From: Octopus vulgaris
Taxonomy: Eukaryota
Assembly (NCBI GenBank): GCA_951406725.2
Contig: OX597825.1
Span: forward strand, 71,982,001 to 72,046,000
Reading direction: 5' to 3'
DNA: 64,000 nucleotides
Translations under genes and position numbers: made by a program
Part shown: one piece after another, positions 4,303 to 59,011 of the stretch
Numbering within the stretch: position 1 is the first letter of the stretch
Layout of the letters: each line of letters opens with the position of its first letter
Notes under the pieces: model-generated
The model's input: only the letters and a program-made list of their open reading frames with translations
What the model was told of the DNA's origin: nothing
Databases searched by the model: none

Positions 4303-5485
4303 CCCTCTCCAGCACCACCCTCCTCACCGGCACCCATCATCAACCCTATCACATCACCGACTCCTTCACCTGCACCTCTACCACTACCATCTCTGTACAT
4401 CGGACAAACGGGACGCCGCTTGGCTGACCTGTTCGCGGAACACCTCCGAGACATCCACCTCGGCAATGACACCCCGGTCTCACGCCATTTCCCCTCAACC
4501 GGTCACTCTTTGCAACACCTGTCCGTGTTCGGATTGTCTTTGCACAGAGGCACAGAGGCCATCCGGACTCCCGTTTGCGCCATGAACAGGGATTAATCTT
4601 CTCTCTTCGCTCATTTGTGCCACAAGAACTCAACTCTCCTCCCTTCTTCATCTAACCCCTCCCCTTGCCCCTCTCCCCCTCCCTCCTACTTCCTCTCACC
4701 CACCTCTCCTCTCTTGCTCCGACTCCTTCTCTTCACCCCACACTCTTTCTCTCTTCTCTCTTACTCTCTTCTCTTATACCCACCTTCCCCTTCCCCTTCA
4801 TCGTCAACCCTCCCTCATAAGCCCACCCCACCCCTACACATTCCTACCTCGCCTTCCCTTCCGTACACCCTCTCCCACATACCCCACCTCTATTCCCACC
4901 CTCTGCTTACCCACAAACCCCACCTCTATCCCTACCCTTTGCCTACCCACATACCCTCAACTCTACCCCAACCCTCAGCCTAAACCACACCCCACTCGTG
5001 CTTCCCCCACTCTCGCCTCCCCGACCTCCCAACAACATCACAACACACCACACTACACCATACCACACAACACATCACATCACAACACACCAACACTCAC
5101 ACACCAGCACTGACCAATTCCCATCCCCACATTTTCATACCTACACATACACACACGCACACGTCAAGATCACCAGCCTTCTTTCACACGCACATACGTA
5201 CTCTCTTACACATACGCGCACCTTCGTTTTGGGATCACGACTACTTTGTTATCTCCCCTACTTCTTAGCTCTCCTGTGTGACCCTTCTGTCCGGCATTCA
5301 CCATGATAGATCGGTAGCCACCACACACATTTTTTTCTCCTTGTTTTTTTTCTGTGTCCCTTTCTGTAGAAGAGCATAAGCTCGAAACGTTAAAGACTTC
5401 TTCAATTCCAGAGCGTTTTACTAATACATCAGTTTGTTTTCTACACCACCTGTCTTCGTCTTTTGTTTTCTTCGTGAATTCTCCC
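4303..5485 (+). mobile_element. Penelope-like element 3' fragment (GIY-YIG endonuclease remnant plus pLTR)
   Basis: SLYIGQTGRRLADLFAEHLRDI (GIY-YIG) in ORF 4105-4596; homologous to 57750-59011; ends in (TA). Confidence 0.88.
5360..5395 (+). ncRNA. Minimal type-I hammerhead-like motif in PLE pLTR (core variant CUGUAGA)
   Basis: cttt-CTGTAGA-a-gagc ataa gctc-GAAAC-GTT-aaag; stem I cttt/aaag. Confidence 0.55.
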
Positions 5486-5489
5486 TATA

Positions 5490-13718: not shown

Positions 13719-13722
<4 letters not shown>

Positions 13723-13928
13723 TTTAAAGGACTGACCACTAGAAGTGGACGGTCAATATGCTAGATATAGACGTCAAAATCGCTATTTTCCACGAAGAAT
13801 GTGTTCTGAAGAAAAAACTCAAGAAATAAAAACACATTGAGAACACATTCTTCGTGGAAAATAGCGATTTTGATGTCTATATCTAGCATATTGACCGTCC
13901 ACTTTTAGTGGTTAGTCCTTTAAATTTT
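13719..13928. repeat. Fold-back element: 89-bp inverted arms, 32-bp loop, adjacent to (TA)n
   Basis: Arms 13719-13807 and 13840-13928 differ at 3 positions. Confidence 0.92.
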
Positions 13929-14047: not shown

Positions 14048-14668
14048 GTAACAAAATAAAAATGGGTGGCTTATTAGCAATTAGAACCTAAAGGCAAAAT
14101 TAATAGAGGTCCCAAAAGTGACAGTGGGTACTGACTAGCACCTCTTTTGCTAGAAATGAGATTTAAAACAACTCAAAAGCCACAAACGCACTGTCTGACG
14201 AAGGGAGGTAAGTCCCCAGCGTACATTGTCGGATCGCGATTTTGGATTTCGATATAGACAGTGCTTTTGTGGCTTTTTGAGTTGTTTTAACTCTTATTTT
14301 TAGCAAAAGTGATGCTAGTCAGCAACCTCTGTCACTTTTGGGACCACTATTAATTTTGTCTTTAGGTTCTAATTGATAATAAGCTACCCTTTTTAATTTA
14401 TTGTTTACACTTTTGCCGTTTTGAAAATCAACACATATTTTCAACGGTTTTTCTTGTACGACTAACAGAGGAGGTCGAGTTTAACCCTAGGCGTTAAGAG
14501 TCACCAATGAGGATTAAGATAGTCTTCATCAAAATTCGAAATCGTGATCCGTCTATGTACACTGGGGACTTATCTCCCTTCATCAGTCTTTAGACAGTGC
14601 TTTCGTGGCTTTTGAATTGTTTTAACTCTAGTTTTTAGCTAAAGCGGTGCTACCCTCTGTCACTTTTA
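14048..14668. repeat. Fold-back plus partial direct copy (inverted/tandem pLTR-like arrangement)
   Basis: Arms 14048-14196 and 14256-14408; third copy at about 14535-14668; contains CTGACGAAGGG / CTGATGAAGGG hammerhead half-cores. Confidence 0.82.
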
Positions 14669-14704
14669 CATACATACGTACATACATACATACACATACA
14701 TATG

Positions 14705-14769
<65 letters not shown>

Positions 14770-14812
14770 TATGAAAGAATGGAGTTGAACGACTAGTTAA
14801 CAAATATCCTTT

Positions 14813-14897
14813 ATTCTCGACATATGTTTCGAAGGCTGCATATTCCTAATTCCGAAGGAATAAGGAGTACATTATGCAGATTTCTCATCAGGAAAAT
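14813..14897 (-). ncRNA. Type-I hammerhead ribozyme, canonical core
   Basis: Minus strand: attttc-CTGATGA-gaa..ctgcata..tatgcag..ttc-GAAAC ATAT GTC-gagaat; predicted cut between 14819 and 14818; cassette 14767-14918 lies between (TA)n runs. Confidence 0.88.
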
Positions 14898-14916
14898 CAA
14901 GGAACTTATCAAGGAA

Positions 14917-14990
<74 letters not shown>

Positions 14991-15026
14991 GATATATAGA
15001 TATATATATATATATGTATATATATA

Positions 15027-15210
15027 ACGGGAAAGTTTACGAAAATAAACAAAAGACGAAGGCAGGTGGAGTACAAACAAACAAATGTATTAGTATGGTG
15101 CTCAGAAATAGAAATAGAAAAATTCTTTTACGTTTCGAGCCTACGCTCTTCGACAGAAAGATACACAGAAAAAAACAAGGAGAAAAACAAGGAGAGAAAA
15201 AAATGAGAGA
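15027..15210 (-). mobile_element. Solo PLE pLTR fragment containing a minimal HHR-like motif (15124-15161)
   Basis: Near-identical to the reverse complement of 58835-59011; tcttt-CTGTCGA-agagcgtaggctc-GAAAC GTA-aaaga. Confidence 0.8.
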
Positions 15211-18055: not shown

Positions 18056-19470
18056 CCCCTTGACGAAGGATTCGAAGGATGTGAAACTCTGCTCCGGTTT
18101 TTTTATCTTATAAGGCCACACAAACACAAAAGTGCCAACGAGCTCGCGTCTATTTACGTTCACCGTTACAATAACATCGCGTCGTACATTTACGTCTACC
18201 AGTTTATGAAAACAAATTATGTGAAGCTATTTATCATAATATGATATGCACGAGTTATTCTGCTCAAGTTCAAAAAATAGCTTGCGTATAGTAGAACTCA
18301 AAACACGGTATTATGCAAAGGGACACATCACAGTCCGGACAACGATATCTGGTTTTGCGCCTACGGTGGTGTGAGGTGCATACAACACACTTCCATGCCG
18401 GATTCTGCTTTTTTTTTCCGTTGGCGGTATGAAGCGCAGGAAAATATCCACGTCGGTTCCGAAGCCGGTTTGGAGTCGGTCGAGCGTGAGGATGTCCACG
18501 CCTTCGTTAGTTGGGCAGCTAGGAAACTTCGATAATTTCATTTATCGAGTCCAGTTGCTTCGCCACCCGGCATTCGCCAGATCAGATGTGTGTTCACGAG
18601 TGCCATATCCACAATGTACAAAAATATATATTTTATACCATTTTTCCGAATCTTCGTGCAGATTTGTGCGTGATAGCCAGCTGATCGGATCTATCCACCC
18701 CACTTATTGCTCTGTTGTAGTCCTGTACAACATCGGGTTTTATGATGGGGTCCCCTGCACGATTTCGTTTGCCAGTTTCAGACATTGCAGCAGAATGTAT
18801 CGTACTCAGCATGGTCAGATACTTTCTGTCTCGCCAGACCAACGCCAGGTGACGTCGAACTGTCCGTCGAACGGTATGCAAATTAAGGCGGCGAGCTGGC
18901 AGAAACGTTAGCACGCCGGGCGAAATGCTTTGTGGTATTTCGTCAGCCGCTGCGTTCTGAGTTCAATTTCCGGAGGTTGACTTTGCCTTTCATCCTTTCG
19001 GGGTCGATAAATTAAGTACCAGTTACGCACTGGGGTCGATATAATCGACTTAATCCGTTTGTCTGTCCTTGTTTGTCCTCTCTGTGTTTAGCCCCTTGTG
19101 GTTAGTAAAGAAATAGGTATGCAAATTCTCTTTTCTCAAGTTTCCAGATAGTGGGGCATATTCCTCCTGAAAGCGCGGACCGTCCCACTGGCGTTTGTTC
19201 TCCTGGCCTGCAAGTTGGGACTGGAAAACCAGTTATCCATATAAATGTTATACCCTTTGTCAAACAGTTCGTCATTCAATGGCATGACGACATTAGTTGA
19301 TGCTAGAACGTCCGCGACCCTGTCCTCGCCAGTATATATATTCTATAGTTCCAGGTAAAGCCACGTGCAACACCGGATGACTGACAAACTTTATATACTT
19401 TCACTCCAATGCGCACACGTTTTGTAGGGTTGTACCGTCTGAATCGCAACCGCCCCTTGAATTTCCAGGA
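18056..19470 (-). mobile_element. Decayed piggyBac (PGBD-like) transposon
   Basis: Minus-strand remnants KFKGRLRFRRYNPTKR, FDKGYNIYMDNWFSS and VVQDYNRAISGVDRSDQL; TTAA|CCCC at 18052-18059 is the probable end. Confidence 0.82.
18885..19115 (+). mobile_element. SINE family B inserted into the piggyBac
   Basis: Head aaggcggcgagctggcagaa; direct repeat ggtatgcaaatt at 18873-18884 and 19116-19127. Confidence 0.88.
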
Positions 19471-20113
19471 AAGTTCCGAGGAAGGGAAATAATTAATTCC
19501 TTGAAAGTTCGGAGGAGAGGGAAGAAGGGGAGTAATTGCTTCCTGGAAAGTTCCAAGGAAGAGGAGGAATTACTTCCTGGAATGCTCCAAAGAGGGGGAA
19601 GAGTTAAATCCTGGAAAGTTCCGAGGAGGGAGGAAAGGGTGTAATTATTTCCTGGAAAGCTCCGATGAGGTGTGAAAAGGAAGGACCGAGGAGTGGGAGG
19701 AATTCCTTCCTGGAAAATTCCGAGGAGGGGGAGTAATTCCTTCCGGGAAAGTTTCTGGAAAGTTCCGAGGAGGAAGAATTACTTCTTGGAAAGTTCATCC
19801 TGGGAGAAGGAATTACTTCCTGGAAAGTTCCGAGGGCAGGAGGAAATACTTCCTAGAAAGTTCCTAGGAGGTGGAGGAATTACATCCTGGAAAGTTCCGA
19901 TGAGGGGAGGAAGAGGAGTAATTACTTCCTCGAAAGTTCCGAGGAAGGGGAGGAATTTCTTTCTGAAAAGTTCCTAAGAAAAGGAAGAATTAAATCCTGG
20001 AAAGTTCCGAGGAGCGGAGGAAGGGGAGTAATTACTTCCTGGAAAGCTCCGAGGAGGGTGAGGAAGGGAAGTACCGAGGAGTGGGATGAATTCCTTCCTG
20101 GAAAGTTCCGAGG
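19465..20113. repeat. Purine-rich minisatellite, unit about 30-45 bp (ggaaagttccgagga...aattacttcct)
   Basis: About 16 imperfect copies by eye. Confidence 0.88.
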
Positions 20114-20244
20114 ATGTATTAGTTTAACGCTCGGGAAGTGAGAAAGTCTTTTACGTTTCGAGCCTACGCTCTTCGGCAGAAAGGAACACAGAAATAAACA
20201 AGGAGAGAAAATAAAAAGGTTTAGTGACTAGCGATCTATCATGG

Positions 20245-22195: not shown

Positions 22196-22239
<44 letters not shown>

Positions 22240-22241
22240 TC

Positions 22242-22336
22242 TACGGACGCACGTTTCGAAATCAAGTTTTTAGGAAAGCATAAGAATTAAATATTAAATA
22301 ATTCTACCTTACCCAAACTTCTTTCTCTTCAGCGTA
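22242..22336 (-). ncRNA. Type-I hammerhead ribozyme, canonical core
   Basis: Minus strand: tacg-CTGAAGA-gaaa..aagttt..agaatta..taattct..aaactt..tttc-GAAAC GTGC GTC-cgta; the whole insert 22236-22344 lies between (TA)n. Confidence 0.88.
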
Positions 22337-22343
22337 TTCTACG

Positions 22344-22412
<69 letters not shown>

Positions 22413-24529: not shown

Positions 24530-24732
24530 ACCTCGTGTGTACCGTTGGCGATTTTTTCCCTCTGTCTTCCCTTCTCTGGATCTTTCCTTCTCCTATGTTT
24601 CCGACGAAGAGCTCCGCTCAAAACGTTAAACCCTCCTTCTTTCCTTCTTTCCTTAGCACCCAATAATACTATATTTGTTCCACGTCCTCGCGTTGTTGTG
24701 TTTTTTTTTGTGCTTTCTTGTTTGGATTAACT
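24530..24732 (+). mobile_element. About 200-bp pLTR/retrozyme-like cassette with minimal HHR-like motif (24597-24631)
   Basis: Near-identical to 32131-32331 and 33038-33228; gttt-CCGACGA-agagc tcc gctc-(A)AAAC GTT-aaac. Confidence 0.75.
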
Positions 24733-26291: not shown

Positions 26292-26529
26292 CTTACTCTT
26301 TACTCTTTACTCTTTTACTTGTTTCAGTTATTTTGACTGCGGCCATGCTGGAGCACCGCCTTTAATCAAGCAAATCGACCCCGGGACTTATTCTTTGTAA
26401 GCCCAGTACTTATTCTATCGATCTCTTTTGCCGAACCACTAAGCGACGGGGACATAAACACACCAGCATCGGCTGTCAGCGATGTTGGGGGGGGGGGACA
26501 AACACAGACATACAAACTCATACACACGC

Positions 26530-26570
<41 letters not shown>

Positions 26571-26742
26571 AATATATACGACGGGCTTCTTGCAGTTTTC
26601 ATCTACCAAATCCACTCACAAGGCTTTGGTCGGCCCGAGGCTATAGTAGAAGACACTTGCCCAAGGTGCCACGCAGTGGGATTGAACCCGGAACCATGTG
26701 GTTGGTAAACAAGCTACTTACCACACAGCAACTCCTGCGCCT
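26292..26742 (-). mobile_element. SINE family A, full length, inserted in the R4-like element
   Basis: Homology; flanking catgcat direct repeat. Confidence 0.88.
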
Positions 26743-27036
26743 AACATGCATGGGTATGTTTCTCGAAGTTTGAGGAACACAGGAATATTGACATGAAGCG
26801 CAGCTTGTCTTGGACACCTGACCACTATATCACAGCACCCTTCGAAGGCTCTGCATCTGTAGTCCAAGAACTGGATATTGCTACGAAATTTCTAATCAAC
26901 AAAAAGAGACAACAAAGACCTTGGAACTCCAAAATCCAACCGAAAATGTAGATTATGTCATATTTCTGAGTAAGATATCACACATGGGATTAACAGCTAC
27001 CTCCTTATGCAGCATGACATTGTCAGAAACACACTA

Positions 27037-32130: not shown

Positions 32131-32133
<3 letters not shown>

Positions 32134-32331
32134 CGTGTGTACCGTTGGCGATGTTTTTCCTCTGTCTTCCCTTCTCTGGATCTTTCCTTCTCCTATGTTT
32201 CCGACGAAGAGCTCCGATCGAAACGTTAAACCCTCCTTCTTTCCTTCTTTCCTGAGCGTCCAATAATACTATATTTGTTCCACACGTCCTCGCGTTGTTG
32301 TGATTTTTGTGCTTTCATGTTTGGATTAACT
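32131..32331 (+). mobile_element. About 200-bp cassette with minimal HHR-like motif (32197-32231)
   Basis: gttt-CCGACGA-agagctccgatc-GAAAC GTT-aaac. Confidence 0.75.
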
Positions 32332-33037: not shown

Positions 33038-33039
<2 letters not shown>

Positions 33040-33225
33040 GCGTGTGTACCGTTGGCGATTTTTTTTTTCCTCTGGATCTTTCCTTCTCCTATGTTTCCGA
33101 CGAAGAGCTCCGATCGAAACGTTAAACCCTCCTTCTTTCCTTCTTTCCTGAGCGTCCAATAATACTATATTTGTTCCACACGTCCTCGCGTTGTTGTGAT
33201 TTTTGTGCTTTCATGTTTGGATTAA

Positions 33226-33228
<3 letters not shown>
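33038..33228 (+). mobile_element. About 190-bp cassette with minimal HHR-like motif (33093-33127)
   Basis: Tandem-duplicated copy of 32131-32331. Confidence 0.75.
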
Positions 33229-34129: not shown

Positions 34130-34194
34130 ACACATATATGTGTGTATATATGTATCAAATGAAATAAAATAAAAAACAGGACACAAATGATGTC

Positions 34195-34282
34195 GCGGTA
34201 CACATGTTTCGAGCTTTATAAAACAACTTATTCTTACATCAATGTATAATCGACATAACAGTTTAAAGCCCTCTTCAGCCGC
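34195..34282 (-). ncRNA. Type-I hammerhead ribozyme, canonical core
   Basis: Minus strand: gcgg-CTGAAGA-gggcttta...taaagctc-GAAAC ATGT GTA-ccgc. Confidence 0.85.
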
Positions 34283-34327
34283 ATGCAAAAGACTTGTATC
34301 ACATTATGAAAGGTTTGAGAAAGGTTT

Positions 34328-34362
<35 letters not shown>

Positions 34363-34363
<1 letters not shown>

Positions 34364-34755
34364 CTTTTACTCTTTTACTCTTTTACTTGTTTCAGTCATT
34401 TGACTGCGGCCATGCTGGAGCACCGCCTTTAGTCGATCAAATCGACCCCGGAACTTAGTCTTTGTAAGCCCAGTACTTATTCTATCGGTCTCTTTTGCCG
34501 AACCGCTAAGTGGCGGGGACGTAGACACACCAGCATCGGTTGTCAAGCAATGCTAGGGGGACAAACACAGACACACATATATATATATACATATATACGA
34601 CAGGCTTCTTTCAGTTTCCGTCTACCAAATCCACTCACAAGGCATTGGTCGGCCCGGGGCTATAGCAGAAGACACTTGCCCAAGATGCCACGCAGTGGGA
34701 CTGAACCCGCAACCATGTGGTTGGTTAGCAAGCTACTTACCACACAGCCACTCCT
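34363..34755 (-). mobile_element. SINE family A
   Basis: Homology. Confidence 0.88.
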
Positions 34756-38052: not shown

Positions 38053-38078
38053 GCACTTACACATAAGAATGATTTTTT

Positions 38079-38483
38079 AGGTGCAGGAGTGGCTGTGTGG
38101 TAATTAGCTTGCTTACCAACCACATGGTTCCGGGTTCAGTCCCATTGCGTGGAACCTTGGGCAACTGTCTTCTACTATAGCCTCGGGCCGACCAAAGCCT
38201 TGTGAGTGGATTTGGTAGACGGAAACTGAAAGAAGCCCGTTGTATATATGTATATATATATATATATATATGTGCGTGTGTGTGTTTGTGTATCTGTGTT
38301 TATCCCCCTAGCATTGCTTGACAACCGATGCTGGTGTGTCTACGTCCCCGTAACTTAGCGGTTCGGCAAAAGAGACCGATAGAATAAGTACTAGGCTTAC
38401 AAAGAATAAGTCCTGGGGTCGATTTGCTCGACTAAAGGCAGTGCTCCAGCATGGCTGCAGTCAAATGACTGAAACAAGTAAAA
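38079..38483 (+). mobile_element. SINE family A, full length
   Basis: Homology. Confidence 0.9.
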
Positions 38484-38519
38484 GTGATGAAAGAGATGAC
38501 GAAAGAACATATGTTCGAC

Positions 38520-45067: not shown

Positions 45068-45199
45068 TATGTATGTATGTATGTATGTATGTATGTATGT
45101 ATGTATGTATGTATGTTATAGTCAGGTCACTTTCAAGTGCTACTGGTATCATGCAACCCGGTACAACCTGTTGCATGGTCGGGCCGTCGGCGACTATAC

Positions 45200-45430
45200 C
45201 TATTTGTTTACTACCCACAAGGGGCTAAACACAGAGGAGACAAACAAGGACAGACAGACGGATTAAGTCGATTATATCGACCCCAGTGCGTAACTGGTAC
45301 TTAATTTATCGACCCCAAAAGGATGAAAGGCAAAGTCGACCTCGGCGGAAATTGAACTCAGAACGTAACGGCAGACGAAATACCGCTCGGCATTTCGCCC
45401 GACGTGCTATTGATTCTGCCAGCTCGGCGA
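45200..45430 (-). mobile_element. SINE family B
   Basis: Reverse complement of 18885-19115. Confidence 0.85.
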
Positions 45431-46305
45431 CTATACCGGCAAACCCACCAAGCTTGCTTGGTGAGGAGGGTGTTTATTGGACACTCTGCGGGATGAAAAA
45501 CAAAACATGTCAAAGGGCGGAGGAACTCTTGAGAGTCGACGGCCATCCAATGAATGTGTAATTATATATTTACTGTATATCTGCCTTTTTCTCACTAATT
45601 TTTATATATTGCATATTTTTATAGCTTGCTCATTATATAATTTTTTATATACTTCACATCATATATTTTATGTATATTTTGTATATTAATGTTTTTTTTA
45701 TATATCGTATGTTCTTTTTTTCTCCTTATATCAATCTTATCCAGCTTAAGGCTGTATCATGCGCGGGAACATAAAAATAATCGGACTGAATACCCGATCG
45801 CGCGGTTAAATCATTGGGAGTGAAGGACTCCTAGCCTTTGTTAGGGCATCCTTGTAGGAGATGGTAACTCAAGTAACTGGGATAACTCCGACATAAAACC
45901 TGCGGCTCAGTGGTTACCGATGATGTTGACTTGTTCTTCTTTTCGGATTATGGCTGCTGTTGCTTAGTGAGTGGGATTGACTCAGTGTACAGTCTTTCCT
46001 CACTTAAAAAAAAATCTTCTTGCACAGGCATTGCACAATAACAACATTGATTCATTGATTGATTGATTGATTAAATTTATTGACTAATTCATGGTTATTG
46101 ATAGTGCTGTGAGTCTCAACTGAATGGCTGGCTGTAGCCTTAAAAAATGCAAACAATCAATGATGTACCAAAACAGTATAAAAATAAATCGCAGTAAGGA
46201 CTCTGGAACCACATCAGATGAAAGTGTCTGGCCCGGCAGGGGCTCCAGAGCATCAGAGTTGAACCCGGCCGTCATCATGCTACTGAGATAGAACAAAAAA
46301 AAATA

Positions 46306-49019: not shown

Positions 49020-51248
49020 GATAAATATTGGCACCGAATAGTCTCTGCAAATAATGTACTGAACATTTGCGGTAATGGACTAAAGGGATAAAGAAAAGTA
49101 TAAGGTTTGCTATACCAGTGGTATGGCGGGAGCCCCATAATCACGTGGATAACTTCTATTTTTTAACCTAAATTTCCAGGGTATTAACCGGAAAAATTGA
49201 CAAAGATTTGTCTATTTTGCCTCTGCTATTATCTTGCCCCTGCTATTAGACCGCTTCCACACAGTGAAGAGCTTCCTGTTCCTGTCTTCAATGTCTTGCC
49301 TCAGATAACTTTACCCTCAACCAAAGAAGATTCATCACCTGAAGATGACACTAGAGATCAAGTCATTTCAGTTGAGACTTTACCTCAGCTATTCGAACTA
49401 ATGATCTAGTTCGTGACTTGAACCTCCCAAAAATTCTGCAGAACTGTTGGCTTCTAGAGAACGGTCTCCATACAACATTTTATCGGAGTTGGTAACAAGA
49501 GTTCTTTTCTTTTCTTTTTTTTTTCACAAAAGAGGAAGAACTGGTCTATTGCAGAAATGTCAGTGGACTTCTTAATAAGCTTGGCATTGGGGAATACAAA
49601 TCAGAGGAATGGCGTCGTTTCATAGACAGCTCTAAGCGTAGTTTAAAATGTGTATTGTTGCCCAACGGAAATGTGTATGACTCTGTCCCACTCAGCCATT
49701 CAACAACTCTGAAAACAAAATATGAAGAAATTAGGTTGGTTATATAGAATATACTGTATATTGACCATAAATGGATCATCTGCGTTGACTTAAAGATGGT
49801 GAATTTTCTCATGGGATAGCAATCCGGTTATAACAAATACCCATGTTTTCTATGTATGTGGGACAGTAGAGACCAGGGAAACCACTATGTTTAGAAAGAC
49901 TGGCCGCCTCGAACAAATATGGCCCCATGTAGAGCTGCCAATATATTGGAAGAACGTTTAGTTGAGCGAGATAAGATCATTTTCCTTCTTTTGCACATCA
50001 AGCTCGGATTGATCAAGCAATTCGTCAAGGCTCTTGACAAAAAATGGGGAGTGCTTCAAGTATATCTGCAGTGTATTTCCAGGCTTCACCATTGAAAAGC
50101 TTAAAGCAGGGATTTTTGATGGACCACAGATCCGTAAGCTCTTGAAGGACACAAATTTCGTGAAAGTAATGAGCGAAAATGAAGCATCAGCTTGGCTAAC
50201 CTTTTCAGAAGTAGTGCAAAATTTCTTTGGGAAACTCAAAAGTGAAAACTATAAAGACCATTTTTTTTCTACTCTAGGCACAAGCCCAAAATCTTTGGAT
50301 GAAAAGCAAAGTCGACCTCGGCGGAATTTGAACTCAGAACGTAAAGACAGATGAAATACCTATTTCTTTATTACCCACAAGGGGCTAAACATAAAGGGGA
50401 CAAACAAGGACAGACATAGGTATTAAGTTGATTACATCGATCCCAGTGCGTAACTAGTACTTGATTTATCGACCCCGAAAGGATGAAAGGCAAAGTCGAC
50501 CTCGACGGAATTTGAACTCACAATGTAACGACAGACGAAATACGGCTACGCATTTCGCCCGGCGTGCTAACGTTTCTGCCAGCTCGCCGCCCTCTATAAA
50601 GACCTTATTACCAACTTGATATCAACTTTTCGTGACATTGGCGCGAATATGCGCATCAAAATGCATTATCTTTTTAATCATCTTGATCGTTTTCCTGAAA
50701 ATCCCGAAGATGTTAGCGATGAACAAGGCGAACGATTCCATCAGGACATCAAGGAGATGGAAAGACGATACAAAGGACATTAGGATGCTGTGATGATGGC
50801 AGACTATTGTTGATGTTTGACAGGAGATATTCCTGTTGCCCAACATTCTCGGTGCACAAAGAAGCACAAATTTATTCCTTGAATTTTCTGCCAAAAATCT
50901 TAACCAATGTGCATATTCAGTTTTGAATTTTTATTTGTACTCCGTTTTGTTTTGTGTTACGCTCTCTTTATTGATTCATACTATATGCCTTTTGTATGAG
51001 TAAAATACTTACTCTATCAGGTTTAGTCAGAATACTAGACCTGATAGAGAAAAAGCTCTTGACAAAAATGAGGAGTGCTTCAAGTATATCTGCAGTGTAT
51101 TTCCAGGCTTCACGATTGAAAAGCTTAAAGCAGGGATTTTTGATGGACCACAGATCCGTGTTTTTTTTTAAATTTAGCAGTTAAAATCACCTAAGAACTC
51201 GTTGAAATATTCCAAGCACCAGACGAAAATTTTTTTTGTTGCTCAGTG
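49020..51248 (+). mobile_element. Decayed Chapaev3-like (CMC) DNA transposon
   Basis: LPHSEELPVP, WR.FIDSSKRSLKCVLL, HIKLGL.KQFVKALDK, KLKAGIFDGPQIR, SDEQGERFHQDI, MMADYC; right end ...gttgctcagtg|TAA (CACTG terminus, TWA target). Confidence 0.8.
50260..50593 (-). mobile_element. SINE family B (partially tandem) inserted in the transposase
   Basis: TSD ctataaagacc at 50249-50259 and 50594-50604. Confidence 0.88.
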
Positions 51249-54119: not shown

Positions 54120-54529
54120 CCCTTTCGGGGACGATTAAATAAGTACCAGTTACACACTAGAGTCGATATAATCGACTTAATCCGTTTGTCTGTCCTTGTT
54201 TGTCCCTTCTGTGTTTAGCCCCTTGTGGGTAAAGAAATAGGTATTTCGCCCGTCGCTACGTTCTGAGTTCAAATTCCTCCGAGGTCGACTTTGCTTTTCA
54301 TCCTTTCGGGGTTGATAAATTAAGTACCAGTTGCATACTGGAGTGATCTAATCGACTGGCCCTCTCCCCCAAAATTTCGGGCCTTGTGCTTAGAGTACTC
54401 TCTTTTACTTGTTTCAGTCATGTGACTGTGGCCATGCTGGAGCACCGCCTTTAGTCGAGCAAATCGGCCCCAGAACTTATTCTTTGTAAGCCTAGTACTT
54501 ATTCTATTGGTCTCTTTTTGCCGAACCGC
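54120..54529. mobile_element. SINE B (+, partially tandem) fused to a SINE A tail (-)
   Basis: Homology. Confidence 0.8.
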
Positions 54530-56483: not shown

Positions 56484-56560
56484 CCAGCCCTCAGTCAAAA
56501 TCGTCCAACTCATGCTAGCAGGGAAAGCGGACGTTAAACGATGATAATAATGATATATAT

Positions 56561-56709
56561 ATTTCTTTACTACCCACAAGGGGCTAAACACAGAGGGGAC
56601 AAACAAGGACAGACAAAGGGATTAAGTCGATTACATCGACCCCAGTGCGTAACTGGTACTTAACTTATCGACCCCGAAAGGATGAAAGACAAAGTCGACC
56701 TCGGCAGAA

Positions 56710-56710
<1 letters not shown>
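56561..56710 (-). mobile_element. SINE family B, 3' part
   Basis: Homology. Confidence 0.82.
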
Positions 56711-56785
<75 letters not shown>

Positions 56786-56787
56786 TG

Positions 56788-59011
56788 TATATACCGTCAT
56801 CCCTCACCACGAAGGATTGCGGGCACTTCAACACTTTCTCGACCTCCGCCCCAACCCCGAACCCGACACCTCCACACTCATTCGTCTGGCCGAACTTGTC
56901 CTTTCTCTTAACTGCTTCTCGTTCGCGGGCGAGTTCTACCAACAGTTCTCGGGAGTGGCCATGGGAACGTGAATGGGCTCCAACTATGCGAACCTGTTCG
57001 TTGGCTATGTTGAGGCCCAAATATTCTCTAGTTTCACTGGTCCCACTCCCGAACTATACGGTCGTTCATTGACGACATTATCGGTGCCACCTCACTCTCC
57101 CGTGAACATCTAGACTCCTTCCTCTCTTTCGTTCAATCCTTTCATCCTGCCCTCCACTTCACCTGCACTATCTCCAACACCTCTGTCTCCTTCCTCGACA
57201 TTTCAGTCAGCATTCATCACTTCACTTTTACCACCTCCATTCACTACAAACACACAGACTCACACACATACCTAAACTTCTCTTCCTCCGACCCCAAACA
57301 CTCTAAGCTTTCCATCCCCTATTCCCAATTCCTCCGTCTACGTAGGCTCTGTAGTGACGACCATGACTTTGAGACTCAGTCTCAACTCATGGTTCGCCAC
57401 TTCATCCTACGTGGATACCCCCTCACCACTATCCACACCGCCCTTGCCAGAGCTCGTTCCGTAGACCGTGCATCTGCTCTCTCCCCCCGAACCCGCTCTG
57501 CAGTCTCCCACCTCCCTTTTCCCCTCACTTACCACCCCACCACCCTACCTCTCCAACGCACCATTCTTCGAGCTTTCCGGTATCTCCAGTCCGACCCGTC
57601 CACTTCATACCTCTTCCCTAACCGAACCCCCCTTCCTTCAAACGAGCCCATAACCTATGAGACCTCTTAGTCCACAGCTTCTTCCCTGACCCTACCTCCC
57701 AGCCTGGCTCGTTCCTCTGCTCCCGCCCACGTTGCCGCACATGCCCTTACCTCTCCAACACCACCCTCCTCACCGGCACCCATCATCGACCCTATCGCAT
57801 CATCGACTCCTTCACCTGCACCTCCAGCAATATCATCTATTGCATCTCCTGCTCTCTCTGCCATTCCCTGTACATCGAACAAACGGGACGCCGCTTGGCT
57901 GACCGGTTCGCAGAACACCTCCGAGACATCCGCTTCGCCAATGACAGACCAGCCTCACGCCATTTCCGCTCCACCGTCACTCCTTGCAACACCTGTCTGT
58001 ATTCGGATTGTCCTTGCACAGAGGTCATCCGGATTCCCGCTTGCGCCGTGAACAGGGATTAATCTTCTCTCTTCGCTCTTTTACGCCATTTGGGCTCAAC
58101 TCTCCCCCCTTTTCATCTAACCTCCTCCCGACTCCTACTTCTCCTCAGTCCTTCATCTTTTCACCCCTACTCCCTTTCCCTCTTCTTCCCTTCTTTCCCT
58201 TCTTCCCCCTTCTTCCCTCTTATTTCTTCTTCCCTCTTCCCCTTCTCTCTTTCTCCCTGCTCCCTCACTCCCCTTCTCTCCCCTCCTCTCCTCCTCCTCT
58301 CCCTACCACTCCCCTCTTCCCCCTCCCCTCCTCCCTTTCTCTTCTCTCCCCTTTCACTCTCCCCACAACCTCCACTTTACCCCAGCCCCCAGCCGAACCC
58401 ACACCCCACATGGGCTTTCCCCCCTCTCACCCCCACCTCCCCACAACATCACACCACAATACACTACACCATACGACATTACACATCACATCACAACACA
58501 CCACCCACAGCACACCGCCCACACACACCATCCCCAAATCTTTACACCTACACCCACATACACATACCATATCACAACACACCACCCAAACACACATCTC
58601 CATATCTCCACACCCACACATACATACATACACACGTCCAGACCACCAGCTCTCTTTCACACGCACATACTCTCTTATACACACACGCACATTCGTTCGT
58701 GTTGGGGCCACCTTCGTTTTGGAAGTCACTTGACCCTGTTATCTCCCCTACTATCCCTCTAGCGTCTAACGTCTGACCTCTGACCTCTGCCTGAAGTCAG
58801 AACGCCATGATAGACCGTTAGCTCCTACACGCATTTTTTTTTCTCCTTGTTTCTCTCCTTGTTTCTTTTCTGTGTATCTTTCTGTCGAAGAGCGTAGGCT
58901 CGAAACGTAAAACACTTGTTCTATTTCTATTCCTGAGCGCCATACTAATACATTTGTTTGTTTGTACTCCACCTGCCTTCATCTTTTGTTTATTTTCGTA
59001 AACATTCCCGT
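56788..59011 (+). mobile_element. 5'-truncated Penelope-like element (RT, GIY-YIG, pLTR) inserted in (TA)n
   Basis: YTVIPHHEGL, FYQQFSGVAMGT*MG..YANLF, (R)FIDDI, IPYSQFLRLRRLCS, NIIYCISC..YIEQTGRRL; stops and frameshifts; pLTR with HHR-like motif at 58879-58912. Confidence 0.93.

What the first reader, a model, noticed from the sequence alone, without database searches (positions are those of the whole stretch)
14767..14918. 152-bp TA-flanked insert that is mostly one perfect hammerhead
Seen on the minus strand: canonical CUGAUGA/GAAA core, GUC cleavage triplet, 6-bp stem I, a long multi-segment stem II (gaa/uuc, cugcaua/uaugcag, uccu/agga, auucc/ggaau) and palindromic stem III. There is a short terminal duplication tcaaggaactta x2. 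Such intact pairing suggests a recent or selected, active ribozyme.
Basis: partly seen in the sequence, partly recalled or inferred. Interest (0 to 1): 0.7.

Follow-up and report, generated by a model that had tools for sequence, protein, structure and literature searches.

The report
Clipped jumping-gene end with hammerhead
This 152-base insert carries a complete hammerhead motif, predicted to be a self-cutting RNA, but it is the clipped end of a many-copy repeat, likely a Penelope-type jumping gene pasted into a TA run, and so an ordinary example of a known kind whose one oddity is a long side arm.

Summary
The motif is real: a type I hammerhead on the minus strand (Rfam RF00163, 14813-14897, E 1e-5, 29.2 bits against a cut-off of 34), predicted cut 14819/14818. 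Stem II is 54 nt (19 bp), stem I extends to about 20 bp, stem III is the palindrome ACAUAUGU. It is not a complete unit. The stretch is a many-copy repeat (980 contigs in one run). In 7 of 7 runs laid, other copies continue past 14909 with other letters, so this copy is 5'-clipped and the 12-bp duplication is its own junction. Other copies end near 14767-14771 in AT-rich DNA. Contigs identical over 88 nt show a young subfamily; selection at this locus is not shown. Across copies the core has no listed substitution, while 6 of 9 substitutions at paired stem II positions break a pair. Best reading: the 3' end of a Penelope-system element copied from uncut RNA into (TA)n (0.88); whether the parent is a coding Penelope-like element (0.5) or a retrozyme (0.38) is open. 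The scan found this kind before on other DNA of this genome. Cleavage is untested. Interest 0.2.

The parts
14767..14909 (-). Family-derived part: 3'-terminal 143 nt (in hammerhead sense) of a multi-copy repeat, clipped at its 5' side
   Evidence: 980 contigs laid in X20; loose ends behind 14909 in 7 of 7 runs
14910..14919 (-). Junction-made repeat of 14898-14907, giving the 12-bp tandem 14896-14907/14908-14919
   Evidence: no contig depth at 14913-14928 in any of 7 runs, and other letters in other copies
14813..14897 (-). Type I hammerhead motif (Rfam RF00163 match)
   Evidence: 29.2 bits, E 1e-5, gathering 34
14885..14891 (-). Core strand CUGAUGA (C3-A9)
14831..14884 (-). Long stem II, 54 nt, 19 bp in four helices, G10.1-C11.1 at its base
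   Evidence: z -3.75, 0 of 200 shuffles
14820..14830 (-). GAAA core strand and self-complementary stem III ACAUAUGU (2 bp plus 4-nt loop as monomer; 8 bp as dimer)
   Evidence: self-duplex -7.0 kcal/mol
14818..14821 (-). GUC triplet; predicted cut between 14819 and 14818, 52 nt from the 3' end
   Evidence: cleavage untested
14797..14912 (-). Extended stem I: 14897-14892 with 14813-14818 (6 bp), 14903-14899 with 14807-14811 (5 bp), 14912-14904 with 14797-14805 (9 bp)
14767..14796 (-). Unpaired 3'-terminal segment; the family's end lies at about 14766-14771
   Evidence: AT-rich loose ends before 14766-14771 listed in 6 of 7 runs
14696..14766 (.). (TA)n tract, left half of the likely target
14919..15026 (.). 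(TA)n tract, right half of the likely target

Best explanation
The insert is the clipped end of a many-copy repeat that carries a type I hammerhead motif and sits in a (TA)n tract; it is likely the 3' non-coding end (pseudo-LTR) of a Penelope-like retroelement, likely copied from uncut RNA by that element's enzyme. Shown: the motif, the many copies, the clipping at 14909, the shared end near 14767-14771, the TA flanks. Inferred: a GIY-YIG endonuclease nicked the TA tract; reverse transcription began at the fixed 3' end, ran 143 nt through the uncut ribozyme, slipped back 12 nt on a 2-nt 'AT' match, recopied 10 nt and joined the target at the same 'AT'. In the parent RNA the hammerhead would cut after GUC, helped by pairing of two palindromic stems III in tandem transcripts; this lone copy is most likely a passenger. 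The part shared with the first rival (clipped 3' end moved by Penelope enzymes) I put at 0.88; a protein-coding parent at 0.5.
For: Other copies continue past 14909 in 7 of 7 runs. Copies in X1 and X18 end at 14768 followed by (TA)10, and AT-rich ends at 14766-14771 are listed in 6 of 7 runs. Two runs of different studies show a similar 25-29-letter extension beyond the 3' end (X17 1 contig, X12 2 contigs), like the optional 30-40-bp Penelope 'tail' (PMC11167929, PMC3846280). Hydra-clade elements insert in (TA)n and have sense-strand hammerheads with palindromic stem III near the 3' end (PMC8557442 section 11 and File S2). In-window example of the layout in another family: 56793-59011 has RT-like, zinc-finger and GIY-YIG pieces (52% to P0015, E 3.7e-17), a hammerhead-like motif about 110 nt from its end, then (TA)n; a clipped copy sits at 15027 beside the finding. 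0 of 22 variable sites fall in 11 core and core-adjacent positions (p 0.014). Uncut RNA is the main template of a Penelope enzyme in vitro (PMC11167929).
Against: No ORF was linked to this family: only 30 letters beyond the junction are visible. Its hammerhead differs from Hydra-1_oBim, and 0 of 4 and 0 of 3 family-specific motif terms had a relevant match in that supplement (two other 10-mers hit unrelated coding DNA once each). Stems I (about 20-22 bp) and II (19 bp) are much longer than in published animal Penelope hammerheads and suit a self-paired retrozyme. The 'tail' rests on 3 contigs and could be the next part of a tandem unit. The in-window Penelope remnant is a different family and had no Pfam hit itself (0 of 3 pieces). 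The core-conservation test is weak: no substitution is listed in 14767-14804 or 14879-14909 either, and rare indels touch stem III (1 contig each in X18 and X6).
Confidence: 0.5

Rival explanations
1. Same clipping and insertion, but the parent is a protein-free non-LTR retrozyme: a unit of a few hundred bases, transcribed in tandem, cut by the hammerhead into monomers that would circularise, and copied in trans by Penelope enzymes.
For: Long self-paired stems I and II; 2-bp stem III with 4-nt loop as in invertebrate retrozyme hammerheads, and highly self-paired RNAs (PMC7229834); low GC, 0.36; retrozymes are reported to derive from pseudo-LTRs and to leave solo copies (10.64898/2026.07.22.740005). 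Earlier unchecked notes describe a 493-nt long-stem-II tandem in this genome (a lead only).
Against: One hammerhead only, no tandem here; fixed 3' end followed by TA; no look-alike of this sequence among earlier findings.
Confidence: 0.38
2. A complete 152-bp mini-element or a host-selected ribozyme, with the duplication as its terminal feature.
For: All helices of the motif pair in this copy; a second TA-flanked insert of 109 bp is also nearly all hammerhead (22236-22344).
Against: Other copies run on past 14909 in 7 of 7 runs and none covers 14913-14918; copies identical over 88 nt exist, so intactness needs no local selection.
Confidence: 0.05
3. The 3' end of a hammerhead-bearing SINE or LINE moved by a non-Penelope enzyme.
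For: 5' clipping with microhomology and AT-rich 3' ends are also LINE/SINE traits (own knowledge; PMC3846280 draws the same parallel).
Against: A type I hammerhead with palindromic stem III near the 3' end plus (TA)n targeting is the published Penelope pattern.
Confidence: 0.06
4. Chance arrangement of short motifs in AT-rich DNA.
For: CTGANGA alone is common: 39 matches, 28 expected; below the Rfam gathering score.
Against: 0 of 200 shuffles gave a strict hit; Rfam E 1e-5; two sequence-distinct inserts in the window repeat the layout with other letters.
Confidence: 0.01

Closest known systems
Hammerheads in pseudo-LTRs of Hydra-clade Penelope-like elements (Craig et al. 2021, PMC8557442; seen: passages, section 11, supplement searches and part 2 of 59)
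   Same: Type I, sense strand, near the 3' end, palindromic stem III, insertion into (TA)n, frequent 5' truncation.
   Different: Stem II there is at most about 7 bp with a loop of up to 10 nt; here 19 bp over 54 nt. Not Hydra-1_oBim. No ORF linked here. A long stem II is listed there for the spike-moss element PLE-X1_sMoe.
Type I hammerheads of metazoan Penelope-like elements (Cervera and de la Pena 2014, PMC4209133; seen: parts 1-2 of 4)
   Same: Solo motifs scattered genome-wide from truncated elements, G10.1-C11.1, palindromic stem III, predicted dimer activity, no clear loop I-loop II contact.
   Different: Not the minimal form: it has a 4-nt loop III, no extra base before stem II, and far longer stems I and II.
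Animal non-LTR retrozymes (Cervera and de la Pena 2020, PMC7229834; seen: passages, section 14. Li et al. 2026, 10.64898/2026.07.22.740005; seen: parts 1-3 of 5, supplements not seen)
   Same: Type I hammerhead with 6-bp proximal stem I and 2-bp stem III, low GC, self-paired RNA, many copies.
   Different: No tandem unit at this locus; long stem II; circular RNA not tested.
Rfam RF00163 Hammerhead_1
   Same: All model positions 1-45 matched, stems I and III and both core strands.
   Different: About 40 extra nt in stem II; 29.2 bits, below the gathering score of 34.

Membership tests
Type I hammerhead ribozyme | Conserved core CUGANGA, GAAA, NUH in type I order | tested here: met
Type I hammerhead ribozyme | Three helices around the core, stem I open | tested here: met
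   Stems I and II pair with probability 0.61-1.0; stem III 0.01-0.02 as monomer, active fold 2.2 kcal/mol above the minimum; 8-bp self-duplex possible
Type I hammerhead ribozyme | Rfam RF00163 gathering score | tested here: not met
   29.2 against 34 bits; long stem II scored as insertion
Type I hammerhead ribozyme | Loop II-stem I tertiary contact | tested here: inconclusive
   A 2x2 internal loop after 3 bp of stem II and a G-A mismatch after 6 bp of stem I lie at about the right distance; no contact can be shown
Type I hammerhead ribozyme | Mg2+-dependent self-cleavage after the triplet | not testable with these tools
   needs an in vitro assay
EN+ Penelope-like element (Hydra/Neptune type) | ORF with RT and GIY-YIG endonuclease upstream | not testable with these tools
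   no genome held; 30 letters visible past the junction; upstream motifs absent from the window
EN+ Penelope-like element (Hydra/Neptune type) | Hammerhead close to a fixed 3' end | tested here: met
   cut 52 nt from the end; shared end at 14766-14771
EN+ Penelope-like element (Hydra/Neptune type) | 5' truncation | tested here: met
   7 of 7 runs show copies continuing past 14909
EN+ Penelope-like element (Hydra/Neptune type) | Insertion into (TA)n | tested here: met
   this locus; (TA)10 loose ends in X1 and X18
EN+ Penelope-like element (Hydra/Neptune type) | Optional 30-40-bp tail | tested here: inconclusive
   similar 25-29-letter extension in 3 contigs of 2 runs
EN+ Penelope-like element (Hydra/Neptune type) | Partial tandem or inverted copies forming pseudo-LTRs | not testable with these tools
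   single copy in the window; contigs too short
Hydra-1_Obim family | Same hammerhead sequence | tested here: not met
   File S2 row differs in all three stems
Minimal PLE hammerhead (min-HHR) | No loop III insertion, extra base before a 7-8-bp stem II | tested here: not met
Non-LTR retrozyme | Tandem units of 150-450 bp, each with a hammerhead | tested here: inconclusive
   absent at this locus; family level not visible
Non-LTR retrozyme | No coding capacity in the full unit | not testable with these tools
   full unit not recovered
Non-LTR retrozyme | Expressed as linear and circular monomers | not testable with these tools
   only contigs were available

The most novel reading that the evidence does not exclude
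Several sequence-unrelated families in this genome share one enlarged hammerhead design: a 54-68-nt rod-like stem II, an 8-nt self-complementary stem III and, here, a 20-22-bp stem I. The long arm would be a working domain, either a new stem I-stem II contact that lets the ribozyme cut as a monomer, or the site by which the Penelope enzyme binds its RNA, so that the ribozyme alone is enough cargo to be copied (inserts of 109-152 bp).
Probability: 0.15. Interest if true: 0.5.

Novelty: new member of a known kind. Interest (0 to 1): 0.2.

Why it matters
As a locus it matters little: it is one of many clipped, hammerhead-tipped retroelement ends in TA tracts. It is a tidy test substrate: a young copy with an intact core whose long stem II can be kept or shortened to ask what the arm does, and whose junction records a 12-nt slip at the point where copying stopped. 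If the long arm proved to be a binding or activating domain shared by unrelated families, it would bear on the open question of what hammerheads do for Penelope-like elements.

Tried and rejected
No whole genome was available, so copy number and full-length copies could not be obtained directly. Self-BLAST of the masked window: no second copy of the insert. Two scans of metagenome contigs: 0 loci. One scan of viral contigs: 1 locus, L001, a chance match inside a protein-coding frame with no hammerhead stems, rejected. No RNA holder listed on record among 24 runs; X12 and X18 are only guessed RNA, so nothing is concluded on expression. No place where many contigs begin or end; contigs cannot show a cut. 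Summed contig depth was not used as copy number. Upstream family motifs not found in the window (0 matches each). Rfam microRNA hits are low-complexity noise. Pfam and PDB found nothing for the in-window Penelope pieces (0 of 3; 0 of 2); identity rests. The duplication as a target-site duplication: rejected, it is on one side only. Strict covariation of stem II: not shown, variants are unphased and 6 of 9 break a pair singly. Literature: 7 searches found no paper describing this family or a 50-70-nt stem II in animal Penelope hammerheads; the library lacks most subscription papers and Repbase/Dfam were not searchable.

Full report
Observation. The 152 bp at 14767-14918 lie between pure (TA)n tracts. 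It is the only strict descriptor hit in the window, against 0 of 200 shuffles (criteria set after seeing it). Rfam Hammerhead_1 matches 14813-14897 at 29.2 bits, E 1e-5, under the gathering score of 34, with the long arm taken as an insertion. Stem II alone folds at z -3.75. RNAfold extends stem I to 20 bp in three segments. Stems I and II have pair probabilities of 0.61-1.0; stem III as a monomer has 0.01-0.02, the active fold lying 2.2 kcal/mol above the minimum, while two copies of the palindrome can form 8 bp at -7.0 kcal/mol. The predicted cut is 14819/14818, 52 nt from the 3' end.

It is a fragment of a repeat. 20 of 24 listed runs, from 10 studies and four coded organisms, hold 0.92 of the sampled words (one may be the window's source). 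I laid 7 of them: 980, 65, 20, 106, 45, 50 and 52 contigs matched. In 7 of 7 runs some contigs match up to 14909 and then continue with one shared other sequence; none has depth at 14913-14928. Two such contigs are identical to the window over 14822-14909 (88 nt, records 16 and 32), and one over 14766-14832 (record 17). So the window copy is a 5'-clipped member of a young subfamily, and the 12-bp tandem (14896-14919) belongs to its junction. Both passes of the tandem end at the same family letters, where 'AT' matches the target; I infer a slip during copying, though later replication slippage would look the same. At the other end AT-rich loose ends at 14766-14771 are listed in 6 of 7 runs, pure (TA)10 in X1 and X18; three contigs in two runs carry a similar 25-29-letter extension. 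Further loose ends at 14895, 14834 and 14796 show sister subfamilies with other upstream, stem II and 3' segments. Read by eye, the family's upstream letters and its majority letters at 14805-14806 would give a 22-bp stem I (unphased, so an inference).

Variation. The union of both lay-outs lists 25 substitutions at 22 sites. None falls in the 11 core and core-adjacent positions within 14805-14878 (hypergeometric p 0.014) or the 21 within 14771-14909 (p 0.02). The test is weak: sites are not independent, no substitution is listed in 14767-14804 or 14879-14909 either, and single contigs carry indels in stem III. Of 12 substitutions at paired positions 5 keep the pair and 7 break it singly; in stem II 3 keep and 6 break, two breaks having possible partners on the opposite strand. 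The core looks conserved; the exact pairing of the long arm does not.

Context. The window is animal-type DNA full of microsatellites; 'octopus' is my recall from its repeats and the label in earlier notes, not a result. Five of 39 short TA-bounded inserts hold a hammerhead-like core. Two other stretches, 22332-22246 and 34278-34199, share the design with unrelated letters: stem II of 68 and 61 nt (z -2.2 each, 8 and 6 of 200 shuffles), and 8-nt self-complementary stems III. A separate family shows the whole layout: 56793-59011 has broken RT, zinc-finger and GIY-YIG frames, 52% identical to P0015, which has an RT motif and GIY-YIG-like end (clade name Neptune-like from my own knowledge of the CxxC linker), followed by a small hammerhead-like motif with a non-standard core and (TA)n; clipped copies lie at 4304, 15027 and 20114.

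Mechanism. Shown: motif, repeat nature, clipping, shared 3' end, TA flanks. From papers: Penelope-like elements carry type I hammerheads in their pseudo-LTRs, mostly seen as solo motifs from truncated copies, with low activity that improves as dimers (PMC4209133, parts 1-2 of 4); Hydra-clade elements target (TA)n and have palindromic stems III near the 3' end (PMC8557442); a purified Penelope enzyme cuts AT-rich DNA, starts at two internal RNA sites that define the tail, and mostly uses uncut RNA (PMC11167929, parts 1-2 of 4); 5' junctions can form by microhomology (PMC3846280, passages). Inferred: this copy arose by target-primed copying of uncut RNA that stopped after 143 nt. The hammerhead would act in the parent transcript; here it is likely a passenger. 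Monomer cleavage is possible, since invertebrate retrozyme hammerheads with a 2-bp stem III cut as monomers (PMC7229834), but 8 of 9 predicted frog elements did not cut (10.64898/2026.07.22.740005).

What stays open. I could see only 30 letters beyond the junction, so the parent may be a coding element (0.5) or a retrozyme derived from one (0.38). The long self-paired stems favour the latter, the fixed end with a possible tail the former. It is not Hydra-1_oBim. Seven paper searches found no description of this family or of so long a stem II in animal Penelope hammerheads; 'long helix II' in viral hammerheads means 6-8 bp (PMC13725137, passages), and a spike-moss element has a comparable arm. 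Earlier notes of this scan report the same kind, including long stems II, on other pieces of this genome, though no look-alike of this sequence; I used them as leads only.

Verdict. Observation confirmed, interpretation partly supported. New member of a known kind; interest 0.2.

Noticed in passing
window 56793-59011 (+); clipped copies 4304-5487 (+), 15027-about 15215 (-), 20114-20244 (-): Broken, 5'-clipped Penelope-like element (RT, zinc finger, GIY-YIG) ending in a small hammerhead-like motif whose first core strand is non-standard (CUGUCGA, CUGUAGA, CUGCCGA in different copies).
   Followed up: partly
window 22236-22344 (-): 109-bp TA-flanked insert that is almost only a type I hammerhead with a 68-nt stem II; its 3' end lies about 10 nt after the cut.
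   Followed up: partly
window 34171-34336 (-): Third long-stem-II hammerhead (61 nt), GUA triplet, unrelated sequence.
   Followed up: partly
window 24531-24732, 32131-32331, 33038-33227 (+): Three copies, 94% column identity, of another TA-flanked family with a small hammerhead-like motif 107 nt from a fixed end; all three start at nearly the same place.
   Followed up: partly
window 14054-14399, third arm 14522-14667: Long fold-back palindrome (125-nt arms 89% complementary; z -25.9 as DNA). The third arm has GAAA before CUGAUGA on the minus strand (about 14605-14580), the reversed order that earlier notes call a split-core hammerhead.
   Followed up: no
window 13720-13927: Inverted repeat with 91-nt arms, 96% complementary, next to a (TA)n tract.
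   Followed up: no
window e.g. 34363-34755, 38078-38497, 26294-26744: A roughly 400-bp SINE-like repeat with more than 15 pieces in the window, often split in the middle by a (TA)n tract.
   Followed up: no
window 18886-19120, 45195-45432, 50297-50591, 54121-54357, 56550-56711: Another dispersed family of about 235 bp, 86-95% alike.
   Followed up: no
window 19459-20114: Purine-rich minisatellite with 34-42-bp units.
   Followed up: no
run X1, laid on 14757-14928: Two low-depth contigs with joints (skip of 34 nt within stem II; jump back of 66 nt), possibly rearranged copies.
   Followed up: no
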